The translations under genes were made by a program, and so were the position numbers. A stretch of 34,825 bases of DNA from a virus (Duplodnaviria > Heunggongvirae > Uroviricota > Caudoviricetes): positions 1 to 34,825 of the IMG/VR virus record IMGVR_UViG_2563366951_000001; one strand, 5' to 3'. The notes below the pieces were generated by a model. The model was not told the origin of the DNA, did not search any database, and saw only the letters and a list, made by a program, of their open reading frames with translations. Of the stretch, positions 11,715 through 29,460 are shown piece after piece. The stretch's first letter is position 1. Each line of letters opens with the position of its first letter.

Positions 11715-11737
11715 GGGGGAATTACCCCCCTTTTTTT
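11715..11737 (+). terminator. intrinsic terminator immediately after Q (GGGGG-loop-CCCCC + T7)
   Basis: GGGGGAATTACCCCCC followed by TTTTTTT; the stem also overlaps the last codons (KKGG*) of the convergent minus-strand membrane-protein gene. Confidence 0.6.
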
Positions 11738-12270
11738 CTCTGTTGCTTTAATAAAATTTTAATATTTTGTCTGATTATGATGAGGCAATGTAATAAAAGA
11801 AATACCGTTAGTATTGCAAGCCATACGCAAAATAAGCATGCATATAAATTAGTTGAAAGTCCAATAGTGAATTGTGCAATTGCTGTTGTGATAGAACATA
11901 ATATTGATGTATTAATAAATGAGGATAAATTGTCTAAAGGTTTATAAAGTACACTATCATTGATTTTGTCAATAGGTATACCAGTGGCAATGCTATAAAT
12001 TTCCTTATATTCCTGAGTTGCAAAAACCTTATCGCGTAAATTTATTATGACAAAGGTATGCAGGCTCAATAAAAATGAGCCCACGGAAATAAAACCGGAG
12101 AAGAGATAGCCTCGTAAGTTTTTATGATAAAAATCAAAAAAGTTAACACTTACTTTAGGTGTGTTTCTGTACAATAGGTAAAGTGCAAGCAATGCCAGGA
12201 TCGAGAATGCAAGCAGTGTAAGGTACTGATACCTCAATCTTTTATTTATTAGCCATTCATATAAAGGCAT
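11722..12270 (-). CDS. predicted 4-TM small membrane protein (182 aa), cassette gene 2; unknown function
   Basis: Four hydrophobic helices (LTLLAFSILALLALYLLY; LFSGFISVGSFLLSLHTFVIINL; FINTSILCSITTAIAQFTIGL; LYACLFCVWLAILTVFLLLHCLIII) and basic C-terminus; AT-rich; start overlaps upstream gene stop by 14 nt. Confidence 0.7.
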   Translation of the reverse strand: MPLYEWLINKRLRYQYLTLLAFSILALLALYLLYRNTPKVSVNFFDFYHKNLRGYLFSGFISVGSFLLSLHTFVIINLRDKVFATQEYKEIYSIATGIPIDKINDSVLYKPLDNLSSFINTSILCSITTAIAQFTIGLSTNLYACLFCVWLAILTVFLLLHCLIIIRQNIKILLKQQRKKGG

Positions 12271-13183
12271 TTTTATTCGTCCCGTTCAGCATTTCTTCTT
12301 TTATCATATCAAAAACAGGGTTTGTTGTATAATTATCGTTTGTCAATCCATTGACTTTATCGGCAATTATATCGAAATCGTATGTTTCAAAAAAAACAGG
12401 GCAGTTCATAAAATCAATGGTTTTTTCTATTCCTGCATGGTTTACTGCAATAACCTGTGCTTTAGCAACTCCACTCATAGAATTATAAATATTTGAAAGA
12501 TTCTGAGATAGTTGTTGCACTTTTGTTCTGTCGCTAGAATTAAAATTCATATCTATTGTGGTGGTGTTAACAAATTGTTCAAGCGCAGTCATTGGTCCAC
12601 CTTTAAAATCTATATAATTAAATTTAAAGCTTGTGCTTTTAATCTCTTTGAATTGACATAAAACACTCTGAATGTTGTTTTTATTTGTCATAAGGCTGAA
12701 AGTCAGTCTTTCTTTGTATTTTTTATTTATTGCAGTTACTTCTTTTTGTTTTGGTTTATCACCAAGTTTTTTTATTTCTTCTTTATTTTGATTTCTGATA
12801 AATTCATTACTTATTGTTTCTAAATGAGAAAAGAGAGTGTTCAGACTGCATGAACCGTGGTGATACATATAGAGACCAGAAAGATTAGATTTTTTAATTA
12901 AGAAAAAGTTGAAATTAGCAAGTTTGTCACTTCCTTGAAGATCTTCAATTTTAAGCTGGAATTTACCATCAACAAATTGCGACTTACAGTTCTTTTTTTG
13001 GTTTCTGAATGTGACAACTAATCCATAATAGAAATCATTCACATCCGAAATGAGAATTTTACGAGTATAGTCTGTGCGACTGTGTTCTCTGTTTGATGCG
13101 TTGATAAAAGCATTCATTACGTCAACGGTATTAATATTTTTGTTATTGTTATTTATTGTAAATCCTATGCTTCTAACTTTCAT
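12257..13183 (-). CDS. hypothetical soluble protein (308 aa), cassette gene 1; unknown function
   Basis: Long AT-rich ORF, Asn/Lys-rich, no TM segments, no P-loop, HEPN or PD-(D/E)xK motif recognisable by eye; antisense to the flanking phage operons. Confidence 0.7.
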   Translation of the reverse strand: MKVRSIGFTINNNNKNINTVDVMNAFINASNREHSRTDYTRKILISDVNDFYYGLVVTFRNQKKNCKSQFVDGKFQLKIEDLQGSDKLANFNFFLIKKSNLSGLYMYHHGSCSLNTLFSHLETISNEFIRNQNKEEIKKLGDKPKQKEVTAINKKYKERLTFSLMTNKNNIQSVLCQFKEIKSTSFKFNYIDFKGGPMTALEQFVNTTTIDMNFNSSDRTKVQQLSQNLSNIYNSMSGVAKAQVIAVNHAGIEKTIDFMNCPVFFETYDFDIIADKVNGLTNDNYTTNPVFDMIKEEMLNGTNKNAFI

Positions 13184-13801: not shown

Positions 13802-14854
13802 ATGAAAAATACTGTAAAAATAAACAGTGTTGATTTAATCAACGCTGATTGCCTGCATTTTATTCAGTCCCTGCCTGATGATTCCATTGACCTGATTGTT
13901 ACCGATCCGCCTTACTTCAAGGTGAAACCTAACGGTTGGGACAATCAGTGGAAAGGGGACGAAGATTACCTTAAGTGGCTGGACCACTGTCTGGCCCAGT
14001 TCTGGCGGGTGTTAAAACCTGCCGGAAGCCTTTACCTGTTCTGTGGGCATCGCCTGGCATCTGATATTGAGATCATGATGCGTGAACGTTTCAACGTGCT
14101 TAACCATATCATCTGGGCGAAGCCGTCCGGACGTTGGAATGGGTGTAATAAAGAAAGTCTGCGCGCATATTTTCCTGCCACAGAGCGCGTTCTGTTTGCT
14201 GAACATTACCAGGGGCCATATCGCGGCAAAAGTGACGGCTATGCGGCAAAAGAAAGGGAACTCAAACAGCACATAATGGCACCGCTGATATCGTATTTCA
14301 GGGATGCTCGTGCCGAACTGGGTATAACGGCAAAACAAATTGCCGAAGCCACAGGTAAGAAAAATATGGTTTCCCACTGGTTTGGTGCCAGTCAGTGGCA
14401 GTTGCCGAATGAGGCTGACTATCGGAAGTTACAGGCACTGTTTTCCCGTATAGCGGCAGAGAAGTTTCAGGAACAACAACTGGAACAACCACACCACCAG
14501 CTGGTGGCATCTTATGATTCACTGAATCGCAAATATTCTGAATTGCTGGATGAGTTTAAATCTCTCCGGCGCTATTTCTCCGTATCAGTCTCCGTGCCTT
14601 ATACCGATGTCTGGACGCATAAGCCCGTTCAGTTCTACCCGGGTAAACATCCGTGCGAGAAACCGGCGGATATGCTCCGGCAAATAATCAATGCCAGTAG
14701 TCGACCTGGTGATCTGGTTGCTGATTTCTTTATGGGATCCGGTTCCACAATAAAAGCAGCAATGGCGCTGGGGCGTCGGGCGTTAGGTGTTGAACTTGAG
14801 TCAGAGCGGTTTAATCAGACGGTGAAAGAGGTAAGTGAACTGGTGGGGAAATAA
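13802..14854 (+). CDS. DNA methyltransferase, beta-class amino-MTase (N6-adenine or N4-cytosine), orphan
   Basis: DPPY catalytic motif near N-terminus (IVTDPPYF) and FxGxG AdoMet motif near C-terminus (DFFMGSGST); motif order IV then I indicates beta class; no adjacent restriction gene. Confidence 0.85.
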   Translation: MKNTVKINSVDLINADCLHFIQSLPDDSIDLIVTDPPYFKVKPNGWDNQWKGDEDYLKWLDHCLAQFWRVLKPAGSLYLFCGHRLASDIEIMMRERFNVLNHIIWAKPSGRWNGCNKESLRAYFPATERVLFAEHYQGPYRGKSDGYAAKERELKQHIMAPLISYFRDARAELGITAKQIAEATGKKNMVSHWFGASQWQLPNEADYRKLQALFSRIAAEKFQEQQLEQPHHQLVASYDSLNRKYSELLDEFKSLRRYFSVSVSVPYTDVWTHKPVQFYPGKHPCEKPADMLRQIINASSRPGDLVADFFMGSGSTIKAAMALGRRALGVELESERFNQTVKEVSELVGK

Positions 14855-25207: not shown

Positions 25208-25378
25208 ATGTTTGTCAAACCTGTTAAAGGGCGGTCAGTTCCTGACCCTGCCCGCGGCGACCTTTTGCCCGCCGAAGGGCGAAATGTTGACGAGAACAAC
25301 TACTGGCTGCGCCGTGAAGTAGCGGGTGATATCCGGCGCGTGAATAAAAAGGTGAACACCGATGACGATAAGCTTTAA
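25208..25378 (+). CDS. small conserved protein upstream of tail sheath (about 56 aa, DUF2635-like by position)
   Basis: Not in ORF track (under 60 aa); GAGGA SD 5 nt before ATG at 25208; reads MFVKPVKGRSVPDPARGDLLPAEGRNVDENNYWLRREVAGDIRRVNKKVNTDDDKL*; overlaps sheath start. Confidence 0.5.
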   Translation: MFVKPVKGRSVPDPARGDLLPAEGRNVDENNYWLRREVAGDIRRVNKKVNTDDDKL

Positions 25379-26858
25379 CACCATTCCGTCGAATACGCTG
25401 GTTCCGCTGTTTTATGCGGAAATGGATAACCAGGCTGCGAATACTGCACAGGACAGCGGAGCATCGCTGCTGATTGGTCATGCCAATAACGGTGCAGAGA
25501 TTGTTGCCAACAGTCTGGTGCTGATGCCGTCGGCAGACTATGCACGCCAGATTTGTGGTGCGGGAAGTCAGCTGGCGCGTATGGTCGAGGCTTATCGCCA
25601 GACCGACCCGTTTGGTGAGCTGTATGTGATTGCCGTTCCGGAAGCCACAGGCGCGGCGGCAACGGTTACGCTGACGGTGACCGGGGAAGCAACCGAAAGC
25701 GGCACGGTGAATGTCTATGTGGGACGTACCCGCGTGCAGGCTCCGGTGACCAACGGCGATAACGTCACGACGATTGCCAGCAGTATCAAAGATGCCATCA
25801 ATGCCGTTCCGGCCCTGCCGTTTACGGCTTCATCTTCGGCAGGTGTGGTCACACTGACCGCGCGTCATAAGGGGCTTTGCGGGAATGAAATTCCTGTCAG
25901 CCTCAATTACTACGGCTTTGGTGGGGGCGAAGTGCTGCCAGCGGGCGTACAGATTGCCGTGGCGACGGGTACCGCCGGAACGGGTGCTCCGGTTCTCACC
26001 GGCGTGGTGGCTGCAATGGCGGATGAGCCGTTTGATTATATCGGCCTGCCGTTCAACGACACGGCCTCCGTTAACACGCTGGTGACCGAGATGAACGATA
26101 CCAGCGGTCGCTGGAGCTATGCGCGTCAGCTGTATGGTCATGTGTATACGGCAAAGATCGGCACGCTGTCAGAACTGGTGACCGCAGGTGACCAGTTTAA
26201 CCAGCAGCACATTACCCTGGCGGGGTACGAAAAAGAGACCCAGACGCCTGCCGACGAACTGGCGGCAAGCCGTACCGCCCGCGCAGCGGTGTTTATTCGC
26301 AACGATCCGGCACGTCCCACGCAGACCGGTGAGCTGGTGGGTATGCTGCCTGCGCCGAAGGGGAAACGGTTCACGATGACCGAACAACAGACCCTGCTGT
26401 CTCATGGCGTGGCAACGGCGTATGTCGAAAGCGGGGTACTGCGCATTCAGCGTGATGTCACCACGTACAGGAAAAACGCTTACGGGGTTGCGGATAACAG
26501 CTACCTCGACAGTGAGACACTGCATACCAGCGCGTATGTACTGCGCAAACTGAAATCCGTCATTACCAGTAAGTACGGGCGTCACAAGCTTGCCAGTGAC
26601 GGTACCCGCTTTGGTCCCGGTCAGGCGATTGTCACCCCGGCGGTGATCAAAGGGGAACTGCTGGCAACCTACCGTCAGCTTGAGCGTGCGGGGATCGTGG
26701 AAAACTACGAACTGTTTAAGCAGTACCTGGTTGTGGAGCGTGATGCCAGCGATCCGAACCGCCTGAACACGCTGTTCCCGCCTGACTATGTTAACCAGTT
26801 GCGTGTCTTTGCCGTGGTTAACCAGTTCCGTCTTCAGTATTCAGAGGAGTCTGCATAA
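25362..26858 (+). CDS. contractile tail sheath protein (Mu gpL-like)
   Basis: 498 aa, followed directly by a 118-aa tube protein with ATAATG coupling; order sheath-tube-chaperone-TMP. Confidence 0.85.
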   Translation: MTISFNTIPSNTLVPLFYAEMDNQAANTAQDSGASLLIGHANNGAEIVANSLVLMPSADYARQICGAGSQLARMVEAYRQTDPFGELYVIAVPEATGAAATVTLTVTGEATESGTVNVYVGRTRVQAPVTNGDNVTTIASSIKDAINAVPALPFTASSSAGVVTLTARHKGLCGNEIPVSLNYYGFGGGEVLPAGVQIAVATGTAGTGAPVLTGVVAAMADEPFDYIGLPFNDTASVNTLVTEMNDTSGRWSYARQLYGHVYTAKIGTLSELVTAGDQFNQQHITLAGYEKETQTPADELAASRTARAAVFIRNDPARPTQTGELVGMLPAPKGKRFTMTEQQTLLSHGVATAYVESGVLRIQRDVTTYRKNAYGVADNSYLDSETLHTSAYVLRKLKSVITSKYGRHKLASDGTRFGPGQAIVTPAVIKGELLATYRQLERAGIVENYELFKQYLVVERDASDPNRLNTLFPPDYVNQLRVFAVVNQFRLQYSEESA

Positions 26859-27214
26859 TGGCCCGTATCGGGGGAACCTGTTATTTCAAAATTGACGGTC
26901 AGCAGCTATCGCTGACCGGCGGCATTGAGGTGCCCATGAACAGGACGGTCAATGATGACATCATCGGCCTGGACGGTTCAGTGGACCGCAAGGAAACTCA
27001 CCGTGCGCCCTATGTCAAAGGGACCTTCAAGGTGCCGAAGAATTTTCCGGTGAGCAAAATCACCTCGTCTGATGAGATGACCATCACTGCCGAGCTGGCG
27101 AACGGTCAGGTCTATGTACTGTCGTCTGCCTGGCTGCACGGCGAAGCGAACCATAATGCCGAAGAAGGCACGGTTGATCTTGAGTTCCACGGTGAAGAAG
27201 GGGATTACCAGTAA
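26858..27214 (+). CDS. tail tube protein (Mu gpM-like)
   Basis: 118 aa between sheath and chaperone; size as Mu tube protein. Confidence 0.8.
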   Translation: MARIGGTCYFKIDGQQLSLTGGIEVPMNRTVNDDIIGLDGSVDRKETHRAPYVKGTFKVPKNFPVSKITSSDEMTITAELANGQVYVLSSAWLHGEANHNAEEGTVDLEFHGEEGDYQ

Positions 27215-27483
27215 TGAAAGAGCTTGAGTTAAAGAAACCGATTACTGCTCATGGCGAGACACTCTCCGTACTTGAGTTTGATGAGCCCACCGGGAAAGAT
27301 GTCCGCGAGCTGGGGTATCCCTACCAGATGAATCAGGATGAGTCAGTCAGACTTCTGGCGCATGTGGTATCGAAATACATTGTGCGGCTGGCGAAAGTGC
27401 CGCAAAACTCTGTCGACCAGATGTCTCCGGCAGACCTGAATGCTGCGGCGTGGCTTGTGGCTGGTTTTTTCCTCCAGGCCTGA
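27214..27483 (+). CDS. tail assembly chaperone (short form)
   Basis: 89-aa protein immediately upstream of tape measure; contains slippery TTTTTTC near its 3-prime end. Confidence 0.75.
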   Translation: MKELELKKPITAHGETLSVLEFDEPTGKDVRELGYPYQMNQDESVRLLAHVVSKYIVRLAKVPQNSVDQMSPADLNAAAWLVAGFFLQA

Positions 27484-27632
27484 CGGCTGAATACCTCACT
27501 GATCGCTTCTTTGACTGCGCCAGTTACTGGCGCATTAATCCCTTCGAATTGCTGAATATGCCGATCAGTGAAATTCCCTTGCTGGTCAGTCAGGCAAACA
27601 GGATAGAGCAGGAGAAACGCACACATGGCTGA
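27214..27632 (+). CDS. tail assembly chaperone, -1 frameshift-extended isoform (predicted)
   Basis: Slippery heptamer T_TTT_TTC at 27465-27471 in the 0 frame; -1 frame continues FFPPGLTAEYLTDRFFDCASYWRINPFELLNMPISEIPLLVSQANRIEQEKRTHG* to 27632, overlapping tape measure start. Confidence 0.55.
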
Positions 27633-29460
27633 ATTTGAGCTTAAGGCGTTGATCACCGGTGTCGACAGACTTTCTCCCGCGCTGTCGAAAATGCAAAAGA
27701 AAATCCGGGGATTTAAACGCCAGGCGGAAGAAGCGTCACAGGGTGGGCTGGCGCTTGGTGGCGGACTGGCAGCGGGTCTGACGCTTTCCCTGAAATCTTA
27801 TGCCGATCAGGAAAACGCCGCCACCGGGCTGAAAGTCGCCATGATGGATGCGAACGGCGAGGTTGGAAAGAGCTTTCAGGACATCAATAAACTGGCTATT
27901 GGCCTGGGTAACCAGCTACCCGGTACAACGGCTGATTTCCAGAACATGATGCAGATGCTGGTGCGTCAGGGGATCCCGGCAGAAAACATTCTTGGTGGTG
28001 TGGGTAAAGCGACAGCTTATCTTGCGGTACAACTGAAAAAAACACCGGAAGCGGCTGCTGAGTTTGCTGCAAAGATGCAGGATGCTACCGGAACGGCGTC
28101 AGAAGACATGATGGGGCTGTTCGACACTATCCAGAAGGCGTTTTATCTGGGCGTTGACGATACCAACATGTTGTCCTTCTTCACTAAAACCAGTTCTGTT
28201 CTGAAGATGGTGAGCAAGGACGGTCTTCAGGCTGCACAGAGCCTTGCCCCCATCAGCGTCATGATGGATCAGATGGGGATGAACGGGGAGTCGGCAGGTA
28301 ATGCCCTGCGAAAAGTTATCCAGTCCGGATTAAGTGTTAAGAAAATCAGGGACGTCAATAAAGTCATGGCCCGCCAGAAACTCGGGATACAGCTCGATTT
28401 TACTGACGGCAAAGGAAGTTTTGGCGGTCTTGATAACATGTTCAGGCAACTGGCAAAGTTGCGAAAACTGACCGACGTTAAGCGAACAGGCGTACTTAAG
28501 GCAATATTTGGTGATGATGCTGAAACCCTTCAGGTGGTCAATGCTCTGATCGATAAAGGAAAGGATGGTTACGATCAGATCCAGCAGAAGATGAATAAAC
28601 AGGCCAGCCTGAATAAACGTGTTCAGGCACAGCTTGGTACGCTGTCCAACCTGTGGGAGGCAATGACGGGGACCGCAACTAACGGTCTTGCAGCTATTGG
28701 CGGCGCATTTTCTGGTGACGCTAAAAATATCACGCAATGGCTGGGGGAGTTGGGGGAAAAATTCACGAAGTTTGCGGATGAAAATCCCCGGGTTATTCGC
28801 GGCGTCGTCGGGCTTGCTGCCGGTCTTGCGATTCTGAAGCTGGGATTGATGGGCGTGGGCAGTGCCATCAGTATTGTCAGCAGGATCATGTCGATGACGC
28901 CGATTGGCATGATTGCGACGGTGATAGCCCTGGCTGCGGGATTAATTATCACTAACTGGGATGTTGTCGGACCTTATTTTAAGAAACTCTGGGAAACCAT
29001 TGGTCCTTATTTTGAGACTGGCTGGGAACTTCTTAAGAAGGTTTTTGCCTGGTCGCCGCTGGGGATGGTGATCAATAACTGGGGACCGGTTGTTAAGTGG
29101 TTTCAGGATATGTGGGACAAGCTGAAGCCAATTATTGAGTGGTTTACCGACAGTTCCGGTGACACGGTCGATGCCATTAACTCTGCGCAGTGGGGCGCGG
29201 GTGCTTATGATGCTTATGGGACGGGAATACCGGCGCGGGGATACACACCTTATCCGGCGGTGGATCCGGCTCAGGCAAACAACGCCTCCGATGCCACAGG
29301 CTCGAATCCCTTCATGATTAACAAAGCTTCTGCGCCAAAAGTCGATGGTGAGATCAAGGTCTCTTTTGTGAATTCGCCTCCGGGTATGCGGGTTATGGAA
29401 ACGCGATCCAGCGGTTTTGATGTCAGCCATGATGTTGGCTATACGCGCTTTGGCAGGTAA
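27625..29460 (+). CDS. tail tape measure protein
   Basis: 611 aa, Ala/Gly/Leu-rich helical protein with C-terminal hydrophobic segment, after chaperone pair. Confidence 0.9.
   Translation: MAEFELKALITGVDRLSPALSKMQKKIRGFKRQAEEASQGGLALGGGLAAGLTLSLKSYADQENAATGLKVAMMDANGEVGKSFQDINKLAIGLGNQLPGTTADFQNMMQMLVRQGIPAENILGGVGKATAYLAVQLKKTPEAAAEFAAKMQDATGTASEDMMGLFDTIQKAFYLGVDDTNMLSFFTKTSSVLKMVSKDGLQAAQSLAPISVMMDQMGMNGESAGNALRKVIQSGLSVKKIRDVNKVMARQKLGIQLDFTDGKGSFGGLDNMFRQLAKLRKLTDVKRTGVLKAIFGDDAETLQVVNALIDKGKDGYDQIQQKMNKQASLNKRVQAQLGTLSNLWEAMTGTATNGLAAIGGAFSGDAKNITQWLGELGEKFTKFADENPRVIRGVVGLAAGLAILKLGLMGVGSAISIVSRIMSMTPIGMIATVIALAAGLIITNWDVVGPYFKKLWETIGPYFETGWELLKKVFAWSPLGMVINNWGPVVKWFQDMWDKLKPIIEWFTDSSGDTVDAINSAQWGAGAYDAYGTGIPARGYTPYPAVDPAQANNASDATGSNPFMINKASAPKVDGEIKVSFVNSPPGMRVMETRSSGFDVSHDVGYTRFGR

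What the first reader, a model, noticed from the sequence alone, without database searches (positions are those of the whole stretch)
27214..27632. Programmed -1 ribosomal frameshift in the tail assembly chaperone (TTTTTTC slippery site)
The 0-frame chaperone (27214-27483) contains T_TTT_TTC at 27465-27471 a few codons before its stop; the -1 frame is open from there for about 54 further codons to 27632, ending inside the tape-measure start. This reproduces the conserved G/GT chaperone arrangement of long-tailed phages, and the ORF track independently shows the overlapping -1 ORF (27450-27632).
Basis: partly seen in the sequence, partly recalled or inferred. Interest (0 to 1): 0.45.

Follow-up and report, generated by a model that had tools for sequence, protein, structure and literature searches.

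The report
Phage tail chaperone programmed frameshift
This is the usual two-proteins-from-one-gene trick of tailed phages: a small share of ribosomes probably slip back one base at TTTTTTC near the end of the tail assembly chaperone gene and make a longer protein. It is real and strongly conserved, but it is an ordinary feature that database records have simply left unannotated.

Summary
The window is an SfV/SfI/SfII-like E. coli prophage with a Mu-type contractile tail.

- **Anatomy:** between the tube gene (26858-27214) and the tape-measure gene (27625-29460) lies an 89-aa chaperone (27214-27483, Pfam PF10109). It carries T_TTT_TTC at 27465-27471 in the correct register. From there the -1 frame runs 53 codons to a TGA (27630-27632) that overlaps the tape-measure ATG by 8 nt. 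The predicted fusion is 139 aa.
- **Conservation:** in 25 lineages below 85% nt identity, heptamer positions 1-6 are T in 25/25 and position 7 is C or T. Neighbouring wobble sites are nearly randomised.
- **Coding signal:** the annotated "intergenic" 141 nt evolves as coding sequence in the -1 frame (dN/dS 0.03-0.25).
- **No own start:** most diverged lineages have no start codon for that frame.
- **Closest relative:** the geometry copies phage P2 E/E+E' (GGT TTT TTG, 91/142 aa, the same 8-nt overlap). Mu itself uses a -2 shift.
- **Efficiency:** no stimulatory RNA structure was found, so the shift is probably rare.
- **Correction:** the junction peptide is VAGFF|PPGL, not VAGFF-FPPGL.

This is a new, unannotated member of a well-known kind, and interest is low.

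The parts
26858..27214 (+). Tail tube protein gene (118 aa). It is the upstream neighbour, and its TAA stop overlaps the chaperone ATG (TAATG).
   Evidence: Pfam PF10618 Tail_tube E=2.4e-33 and phrog_185; ORF list.
27214..27483 (+). 0-frame tail assembly chaperone, the 'G'/E analogue (89 aa). This is the product of ribosomes that do not slip.
   Evidence: Pfam PF10109 Phage_TAC_7, 59.4 bits against a cutoff of 25, residues 4-86 on profile positions 2-78 of 79. phrog_166. RefSeq annotates it as 'phage tail assembly protein'.
27465..27471 (+). Slippery heptamer T_TTT_TTC (0 frame GGT TTT TTC). The proposed event is tandem re-pairing of two tRNA-Phe from UUU-UUC to UUU-UUU.
   Evidence: Sequence and register check. 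Positions 1-6 are T in 25/25 diverged lineages and position 7 is C in 13 and T in 12. Six different amino acids are encoded by the preceding codon, yet its third base is always T.
27471..27632 (+). -1 frame extension, the 'T'/E' analogue: 53 codons (PPGLTAEYL...RIEQEKRTHG) plus TGA. Public records leave this stretch as an intergenic gap or call it a separate hypothetical ORF.
   Evidence: Translation. phrog_32181 E=4e-40. Substitutions fall 4/1/23 on codon positions 1/2/3 and dN/dS is 0.03-0.25 in this frame against mostly >1 (0.77-3.9) in the other two. The motif [YF]W[RK][ILM]NP...A.RI is conserved.
27214..27632 (+). Predicted 139-aa frameshift fusion: 86 aa from the 0 frame (27214-27471) plus 53 aa from the -1 frame (27471-27629).
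   Evidence: Constructed. Relatives give fusions of 138-142 aa even though their 0-frame products vary from 89 to 111 aa. The AlphaFold2 model has pLDDT 87 and pTM 0.78. Best viral fold matches are tape-measure and tail assembly chaperones, E=1.5e-5.
27610..27614 (+). AGGAG Shine-Dalgarno sequence of the tape-measure gene, lying inside the end of the -1 extension, 10 nt upstream of the ATG.
   Evidence: Read directly from the sequence.
27625..29460 (+). Tail tape measure protein gene (611 aa). This is the downstream neighbour and the presumed client of the chaperone.
   Evidence: Pfam PF10145 E=9e-27 and phrog_28/phrog_17727.

Best explanation
This is a programmed -1 ribosomal frameshift in the tail assembly chaperone gene of an SfV-like prophage with a Mu-type contractile tail.

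Most ribosomes translate 27214-27483 and release the 89-aa chaperone. A minority slip while the two tRNA-Phe occupy UUU (P site) and UUC (A site) of U_UUU_UUC at 27465-27471. They re-pair one base back on UUU-UUU and then read 53 further codons in the -1 frame. They terminate at the UGA (27630-27632) that overlaps the tape-measure start. The result is a 139-aa fusion with the same N-terminal 86 residues.

By analogy with lambda gpG/gpGT and P2 E/E+E', the shared N-terminal domain would bind the tape-measure protein. The -1-encoded C-terminal domain would recruit the tube protein so that the tube polymerises around the tape measure. Neither product would stay in the virion.

Shown here: the anatomy, the nucleotide-level conservation of the slip site, protein-level selection on the -1 frame, and the lack of an independent start. 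Inferred: that slippage occurs on the ribosome, its efficiency (probably about 0.1 to a few percent, since no stimulator was found), and the assembly function.
For: - **Gene order:** sheath, tube, chaperone, tape measure, DNA-circulation protein, baseplate hub, all with Pfam/PHROG support.
- **Heptamer:** it is in register three sense codons before the stop. The -1 frame stays open for 53 codons and ends 8 nt into the tape-measure gene.
- **Uniqueness:** it is the only one of 18 in-register heptamers in the window whose product runs past the 0-frame stop.
- **Conservation:** eight phages (SfV, EPP-1, AH07, SfIV, phiP27, ST64B, YeP1) and about 35 genomic loci keep TTTTTTC or TTTTTTT in register at codons about 83-89. 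The genomic loci are mostly Enterobacterales, plus a Derxia, a Methylococcales MAG and two uncultured proteobacteria. All keep a 50-59-aa -1 extension, while the 0-frame tail after the site varies from 3 to 26 codons.
- **Wobble positions:** in 25 lineages below 85% nt identity, both wobble positions inside the heptamer are T in 25/25. Other wobble sites average 0.48 majority frequency.
- **Coding signal:** dN/dS in the -1 frame downstream of the G stop is 0.03-0.25.
- **No start codon:** 31 of 72 distinct loci have no ATG/GTG/TTG in the -1 frame upstream of the site. Most of the loci that do have one are near-identical SfV-clade copies.
- **Motif class:** both U_UUU_UUC and U_UUU_UUU belong to the shift-prone class H_HH.U_UU.Y measured in E. 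coli (PMC4066793).
- **P2 comparison:** P2 E/E+E', annotated as a -1 frameshift, has GGT TTT TTG at the same PF10109 profile position, 91/142-aa products and the same 8-nt overlap with its tape-measure gene.
Against: - There is no protein or reporter evidence for this lineage.
- No stimulatory element was found. Downstream folds are not better than shuffles (z=-1.44 and -0.79). There is no conserved structure (consensus -2.9 kcal/mol), no Rfam match and no clear upstream SD-like sequence.
- Measured frameshifting on bare U_UUU_UUC in E. coli is only 0.12% (PMC4066793 Table S3).
- Two near-identical prophage copies lack the first T: GGG TTT TTT in L091 and GGG TTT TTC in L122.
- An extra U inserted by RNA polymerase in the T6 run would give exactly the same protein. 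Sequence data alone cannot separate that from ribosomal slippage.
Confidence: 0.85

Rival explanations
1. Transcriptional slippage. RNA polymerase adds one extra U while copying the T6 run (T7 in sister lineages). Ordinary translation of that minority mRNA then yields the same 139-aa fusion (...GFF PPGL...).
For: Inserting one U puts the downstream sequence into the same frame and gives an identical peptide; this follows directly from the sequence. What is conserved is a homopolymeric T run of 6-8 nt. Variant L091 keeps a T6 run through two changes (GGG TTT TTT CTC) although it loses the canonical X_XXY_YYZ first base. Slippage on U/A runs is documented in bacteria (review PMC5009743).
Against: From general knowledge, efficient slippage by E. 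coli RNA polymerase is usually reported for runs of about 8-9 or more, and here the run is only 6. The run starts at the wobble base of the preceding codon in all 79 distinct sequences, and position 7 is restricted to C or T. That is what tRNA-Phe re-pairing requires, although conservation of the Phe-Phe dipeptide confounds this argument. The homologous P2 site is annotated as a translational frameshift.
Confidence: 0.08
2. The -1 ORF is a separate small gene. It would be translated from its own start (GTG 27450, as in the mechanical ORF list and in one GenBank record) or by re-initiation after the chaperone stop, giving a free 60-aa protein.
For: The ORF list shows a GTG-initiated 60-aa ORF at 27450-27632. 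Phage vB_EcoM-689R6 annotates it as a hypothetical protein. PHROG 32181 and several database proteins consist of this ORF alone.
Against: There is no Shine-Dalgarno sequence upstream of GTG 27450 (CCTGAATGCTGCGGC). 31 of 72 distinct loci, almost all of them outside the near-identical SfV clade, have no ATG/GTG/TTG at all in this frame before the conserved motif. The -1 frame opens at very different distances upstream, from 0 to 273 nt. The predicted fusion length is constant at 138-142 aa.
Confidence: 0.03
3. There is no functional recoding. The T run and the open -1 frame would be inherited relics or by-products of the conserved Phe-Phe dipeptide, and only the 89-aa protein would matter.
For: Bare U_UUU_UUC shifts only about 0.1% in reporters. 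No stimulator was found. Public annotation pipelines list only the short product.
Against: The -1 frame is under strong purifying selection in a stretch that codes for nothing else. The wobble bases of the heptamer are invariant while neighbouring wobble sites are randomised. The -1 stop is always placed 7-10 nt past the tape-measure start. The P2 record describes E+E' as an essential tail protein.
Confidence: 0.04

Closest known systems
Phage P2 E / E+E' (-1 frameshift at T_TTT_TTG; Christie et al. 2002; annotated in NC_001895)
   Same: - It belongs to a contractile-tail phage and the gene lies between the tube (FII) and tape-measure (T) genes.
- The N-terminal domain is in the same Pfam family, PF10109, and that domain ends at the slip site (profile position 78 of 79) in both proteins.
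- The slip codons are GGT TTT TTN at codons 83-85 in P2 and 84-86 here.
- The products are 91/142 aa in P2 and 89/139 aa here.
- The -1 stop overlaps the tape-measure start by 8 nt in both.
- No downstream stimulatory structure is reported for P2 (PMC3091744), and none was found here.
   Different: - The seventh base is C (T in sister lineages) instead of G, so the A-site tRNA is Phe rather than Leu.
- The -1 domain does not reach Pfam PF06528 (Phage_P2_GpE). Its similarity to P2 E' is only weak by profile comparison (E=6.7e-4, probability 27%).
- The rest of the tail module is Mu-like, not P2-like.
Phage lambda gpG / gpGT (-1 frameshift at G_GGA_AAG; Levin et al. 1993; Xu, Hendrix & Duda 2004, 2013, 2014)
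   Same: The logic and gene position are the same. A chaperone and a rarer C-terminally extended fusion are made from one start, between the major tail and tape-measure genes. This is the source of the functional model, in which the G domain binds the tape measure and the T domain recruits the tail tube subunit (as summarised in PMC5009743).
   Different: - Lambda has a non-contractile tail.
- The slippery heptamer and the tRNAs involved are different.
- No hit to lambda-type chaperone families appeared in the Pfam scan.
Phage Mu gp41 (tail assembly chaperone with a -2 frameshift; Xu et al. 2004, as cited in PMC2628397 and PMC5009743)
   Same: The surrounding tail module is Mu-type: sheath L, tube M, gp42-like tape measure, gp43 DNA-circulation protein and gp44 hub. 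Mu gp41 scores just under the PF10109 cutoff (24.7 bits against 25). The Mu extension shows weak profile similarity to the -1 domain here (E=2.5e-4, probability 43%).
   Different: - Mu shifts by -2 at a G-rich site near the end of a 144-aa protein, and its best Pfam family is PF23746, which the window protein does not hit.
- In the window the +1/-2 frame closes two codons after the chaperone stop, so only a -1 shift is productive.

Membership tests
G/GT-type tail assembly chaperone frameshift (Xu, Hendrix & Duda 2004) | The gene lies between the major tail/tube gene and the tape-measure gene. | tested here: met
   Tube 26858-27214, chaperone 27214-27483, tape measure 27625-29460.
G/GT-type tail assembly chaperone frameshift (Xu, Hendrix & Duda 2004) | [quoted passage not shown] | tested here: met
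   T_TTT_TTC at 27465-27471, read as GGT TTT TTC, three sense codons before the stop. The motif class is shift-prone in E. coli.
G/GT-type tail assembly chaperone frameshift (Xu, Hendrix & Duda 2004) | An overlapping downstream ORF in the shifted frame lacks its own translation start and ends at or near the tape-measure start. | tested here: met
   The -1 frame gives 53 codons and its stop overlaps the tape-measure ATG by 8 nt. There is no conserved start codon or SD.
G/GT-type tail assembly chaperone frameshift (Xu, Hendrix & Duda 2004) | The slip site and the shifted-frame coding capacity are conserved among relatives. | tested here: met
   25 lineages show an invariant T6. dN/dS is 0.03-0.25 in the -1 frame. 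Predicted fusions are 138-142 aa in 8 phages.
G/GT-type tail assembly chaperone frameshift (Xu, Hendrix & Duda 2004) | Both the short and the frameshifted proteins are made, and both are needed for tail assembly. | not testable with these tools
   This needs protein detection and genetics. No paper on this lineage was found in the searchable library.
P2 E / E+E' family | The N-terminal domain belongs to Pfam PF10109 (Phage_TAC_7). | tested here: met
   Window protein 59.4 bits and P2 E+E' 47.8 bits, against a cutoff of 25.
P2 E / E+E' family | The -1 slip site lies at the end of the PF10109 domain, on a GGT TTT TTN sequence. | tested here: met
   Both domains end at profile position 78 of 79, at residue 86 here and residue 85 in P2.
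P2 E / E+E' family | The -1 encoded domain belongs to Pfam PF06528 (Phage_P2_GpE). | tested here: not met
   None of 18 diverse -1 domains hits PF06528 at E<=1. hhalign against P2 E' gives only E=6.7e-4 with probability 27%.
Mu gp41 family (-2 frameshift) | The protein matches Pfam PF23746 (Gp41_Mu), and the productive shift is -2 into the +1 frame. | tested here: not met
   There is no PF23746 hit. The +1/-2 frame closes at 27490, two codons after the chaperone stop.

The most novel reading that the evidence does not exclude
The GGT-TTT-TTY/G slip site may be one ancient recoding site inherited at the same structural position by both the P2-type and the SfV/Mu-type chaperone families. Mu itself would then have switched secondarily to a -2 shift at a different site. 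If so, one tail-module family would hold both frameshift modes, and the T-run variants (T6C, T7, and natural G_TTT_TTT or G_TTT_TTC copies) would form a natural series for tuning the G:GT ratio. A sub-reading also remains open: part or all of the long product could come from RNA-polymerase slippage on the T run rather than from the ribosome.
Probability: 0.3. Interest if true: 0.35.

Novelty: new member of a known kind. Interest (0 to 1): 0.2.

Why it matters
The main value is for annotation. This prophage family holds at least 80% of the 843-nt query in 896 of 5,426 complete E. coli genomes. In every record inspected (RefSeq, GenBank SfV, SfIV, phiP27, ST64B, YeP1, EPP-1, AH07) only the short protein is annotated. 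The 85-141 nt before the tape-measure gene are left as a gap or as a stray hypothetical ORF.

The 139-aa fusion is probably an essential tail-assembly protein, as E+E' is described in the P2 record. It should be annotated as a ribosomal-slippage CDS. Its -1 domain has no Pfam or NCBIfam model, and its PHROG is labelled 'unknown function'.

Biologically it adds nothing unexpected to the picture drawn by Xu, Hendrix and Duda. It does show that a Mu-type tail module can use the P2-type -1 site rather than Mu's -2 shift.

Tried and rejected
- **Downstream stimulatory structure:** none was found. Single-sequence folds are not better than shuffles, the 13-sequence consensus fold is -2.9 kcal/mol and there is no Rfam family. 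The perfect hairpin at 27517-27533 lies 46 nt downstream, too far to act on a ribosome at the slip site. It is lost in lineages L022 and L025.
- **-2/+1 shift as in Mu:** rejected, because that frame closes after two codons.
- **Independent start for the -1 ORF:** rejected.
- **Full-length 'fused' database proteins P0001-P0003 (137-139 aa):** these looked like natural in-frame fusions. Their junctions are aberrant (e.g. AGFSSSLTAEY, GFFLQARRLNTSLIAFFDC), and each is a singleton from a metagenome or read-archive assembly. I treat them as indel artefacts.
- **NCBIfam:** no model matches either product.
- **Literature:** Xu et al. 2004, Christie et al. 2002 and Allison et al. 2002 are not held in the library. 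I could not check whether SfV was already listed among the predicted frameshifts in 2004.

Full report
**1. What the window is.** The 843 nt around the finding are 100% identical to a prophage in E. coli ECONIH5. They are 97.7-98.6% identical to the Shigella/E. coli phages SfI, SfV, SfII, vB_EcoM-689R6 and SKA5. At least 80% of the query is present in 896 of 5,426 complete E. coli genomes. The window carries an IS110-type transposase, a lambda-type integrase, a CI-like repressor, a DNA methylase, a terminase, a portal and an HK97-type capsid. These are followed by a Mu-type contractile-tail module:
- DUF2635 (Mu gp38-like)
- sheath, 25362-26858
- tube, 26858-27214
- a small chaperone, 27214-27483
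- tape measure, 27625-29460
- DNA-circulation protein
- gp44-like baseplate hub

**2. The observation.**
- The 0-frame ORF 27214-27483 encodes 89 aa ending ...AAWLVAGFFLQA*.
- TTTTTTC occupies 27465-27471, and 27465 is the third base of a GGT codon. The 0-frame reading is therefore GGT TTT TTC, the X_XXY_YYZ register needed for tandem -1 slippage.
- The -1 frame is open from 27342 to a TGA at 27630-27632.
- After a slip, the next codon is CCT at 27471. Fifty-three sense codons follow (PPGLTAEYLTDRFFDCASYWRINPFELLNMPISEIPLLVSQANRIEQEKRTHG), giving an 86+53 = 139-aa fusion.
- The -1 stop overlaps the tape-measure ATG (27625) by 8 nt (ATGGCTGA).
- The tape-measure Shine-Dalgarno sequence AGGAG (27610-27614) lies inside the end of the extension.
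Whichever tRNA-Phe slips, the peptide is VAGFFPPGL.
- The +1/-2 frame closes two codons after the chaperone stop, so only a -1 shift is productive.

**3. More than chance.** I took 36 plus-strand ORFs of the window as genes (8,688 codons). They hold 18 in-register XXXYYYZ heptamers. The one at 27465 is the only one whose -1 product runs past the 0-frame stop. A -1 frame open for at least 53 codons is found at 5.7% of codon positions.

**4. Comparative evidence.** This is the decisive part.

Seven further phages were examined: SfV, Edwardsiella EPP-1, Pantoea AH07, SfIV, phiP27, ST64B and Yersinia YeP1. Their chaperones are as little as 28% identical to the window's. All have TTTTTTC or TTTTTTT in the same register at the same place in the protein (...GFF...RFF...NFF). 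All have a -1 frame that stays open to 7-10 nt past the tape-measure start. The 0-frame products vary from 89 to 111 aa, but the predicted fusions are all 138-142 aa.

A scan of one genome per species found 38 loci. About 35 keep the same arrangement. Most are Enterobacterales, plus a Derxia (Betaproteobacteria), a Methylococcales MAG and two uncultured proteobacteria. The exceptions are degraded copies in insect endosymbionts.

Among 79 distinct sequences the heptamer is TTTTTTC in 59 and TTTTTTT in 20. The codon before it ends in T whatever it encodes: Gly, Asn, Arg, Ser, Asp or Val. In 25 lineages below 85% nucleotide identity, heptamer positions 1-6 are T in 25/25 and position 7 is C in 13 and T in 12. 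The other 23 wobble positions nearby have a mean majority frequency of only 0.48. The site is therefore selected at the nucleotide level, beyond the conserved Phe-Phe dipeptide.

**5. The 'intergenic' stretch is coding in the -1 frame.** I looked downstream of the chaperone stop, where nothing else is annotated. Differences between the window and relatives fall mainly on the third position of -1 frame codons, for example 4/1/23 against Buttiauxella and 3/2/20 against Scandinavium. Nei-Gojobori dN/dS is 0.03-0.25 in the -1 frame, against 0.77-3.9 (above 1 in 9 of 10 comparisons) in the other two frames. The peptide carries a conserved motif, [YF]W[RK][ILM]NP...A.RI.

**6. It cannot be a separate gene.** The GTG at 27450 that begins the mechanical 60-aa ORF has no Shine-Dalgarno sequence. 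In 31 of 72 distinct loci there is no ATG, GTG or TTG in that frame upstream of the slip site. Most of the loci that do have one are near-identical SfV-clade copies. Start codons between the slip site and the conserved motif are also nearly absent. Expression of this conserved peptide therefore requires a frame change from the chaperone ORF.

**7. Mechanism and efficiency.** In E. coli reporter assays H_HH.U_UU.Y heptamers are among the efficient classes (PMC4066793).

| Heptamer | No stimulator | IS911 stimulator | IS3 pseudoknot |
|---|---|---|---|
| U_UUU_UUC | 0.12% | 0.89% | 7.6% |
| U_UUU_UUU | 0.33% | 0.45% | 10.2% |
| U_UUU_UUG (P2) | 0.12% | 0.25% | 0.77% |

These values are from Table S3 of that paper.

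I found no stimulator here:
- The 89 nt and 201 nt around the site do not fold better than shuffles (z=-1.44 and -0.79).
- Folds of 22 lineages show nothing consistent at a 5-9 nt spacing.
- A 13-sequence consensus fold is -2.9 kcal/mol.
- Rfam finds nothing.

This matches what is reported for P2 and most phage G/GT sites (PMC3091744). The likely outcome is a low ratio of long to short product, in the range of 0.1% to a few percent. That figure is an inference.

**8. Rival: transcriptional slippage.** One extra U inserted in the T6 run would produce the identical protein, so sequence alone cannot exclude it. The run is short for efficient slippage by E. coli RNA polymerase (general knowledge), and the restriction of position 7 to C or T fits tRNA-Phe re-pairing. 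However, one natural copy (L091, GGG TTT TTT CTC) keeps a T6 run while losing the canonical first base. Another (L122, GGG TTT TTC) has only T5. I give this rival about 8%.

**9. Comparison with known systems.**

*P2.* The P2 record annotates E (91 aa) and E+E' (142 aa, a joined CDS noted as '-1 frameshift; essential tail protein'). The slip is at GGT TTT TTG, and E+E' ends 8 nt into the tape-measure gene T. Pfam PF10109 covers residues 7-85 of P2 E and residues 4-86 of the window protein. In both cases it ends at profile position 78 of 79, which is the slip site. The site is therefore positionally homologous. The -1 domains are only weakly similar. hhalign gives E=6.7e-4 and probability 27%, a full-length collinear alignment gives E=0.0027, and none of 18 -1 domains hits Pfam PF06528.

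*Mu.* Mu's tail module is the closest overall, but it uses a -2 shift (PMC2628397 and PMC5009743). Its gp41 is 144 aa and matches PF23746, which the window protein does not hit. The Mu extension shows weak similarity to the -1 domain here (E=2.5e-4, probability 43%).

**10. Annotation status and novelty.** None of the records inspected annotates a joined CDS. These are RefSeq E. coli ECONIH5 and ECCHD184, and GenBank SfV, vB_EcoM-689R6, EPP-1, AH07, SfIV, phiP27, ST64B and YeP1. The -1 part is left as a gap or, in one record, called a hypothetical protein. Its PHROG (32181) is labelled 'unknown function', and NCBIfam has no model. No paper in the searchable library describes this frameshift for the SfV lineage. 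The 2004 survey by Xu et al. is not held, so I cannot exclude that SfV was already listed there. The phenomenon itself is textbook.

**Verdict.** This is a new, unannotated member of a known kind, closest to P2 E/E+E'. Interest is 0.2.

Noticed in passing
window 27517-27533: A perfect inverted repeat, GCGCCAGT-T-ACTGGCGC (8-nt arms), lies inside the -1 extension at codons C-A-S-Y-W-R, 46 nt downstream of the slip site. It forms the only strong hairpin in the region. It is conserved in the lineages that keep DCASYWR but broken in L022 and L025. It is too far downstream to act as a classical frameshift stimulator.
   Followed up: partly
L091:2745-2765 and L122:2745-2765 (IMG/VR prophage contigs, 99% identical to the window): These are natural slip-site variants. 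L091 has GGG TTT TTT CTC, with the T6 run kept but shifted by one base. L122 has GGG TTT TTC, with only T5. Both keep an intact -1 extension. They may be decaying prophages, or the site may tolerate loss of the first base.
   Followed up: partly
L015, L019, L025-L027, L039, L042 (around locus position 2749-2767): In several lineages the Gly codon is preceded by a G. This gives two overlapping in-register heptamers, G_GGT_TTT and T_TTT_TTC.
   Followed up: no
proteins P0122, P0127, P0129, P0131, P0133: NCBI names contig-edge fragments that consist only of the -1 frame domain 'phage tail assembly protein, partial'. Yet complete genomes of the same lineages carry only the short 0-frame CDS. The annotation of this gene pair is therefore inconsistent.
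   Followed up: partly
proteins P0001-P0003: These are three singleton 137-139-aa 'full-length fusion' proteins from metagenome or read-archive assemblies. Their junctions are aberrant, consistent with indel errors rather than natural in-frame fusions.
   Followed up: yes
window 691-1968 (-) and 2233-3363 (-): An IS110-family transposase (PF01548/PF02371) lies immediately next to the lambda-type prophage integrase at the left end of the window.
   Followed up: no
window 11722-12270 (-) and 12257-13183 (-): Two overlapping minus-strand ORFs (182 and 308 aa) have no Pfam match. They are embedded among plus-strand phage genes, just upstream of a DNA methylase (13802-14854). They could be an accessory ('moron') cassette.
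   Followed up: no
literature, PMC7067206 (ST64B prophage): [quoted passage not shown] I did not establish whether this refers to a baseplate gene or to the programmed chaperone frameshift seen at L008:2584-2590.
   Followed up: no
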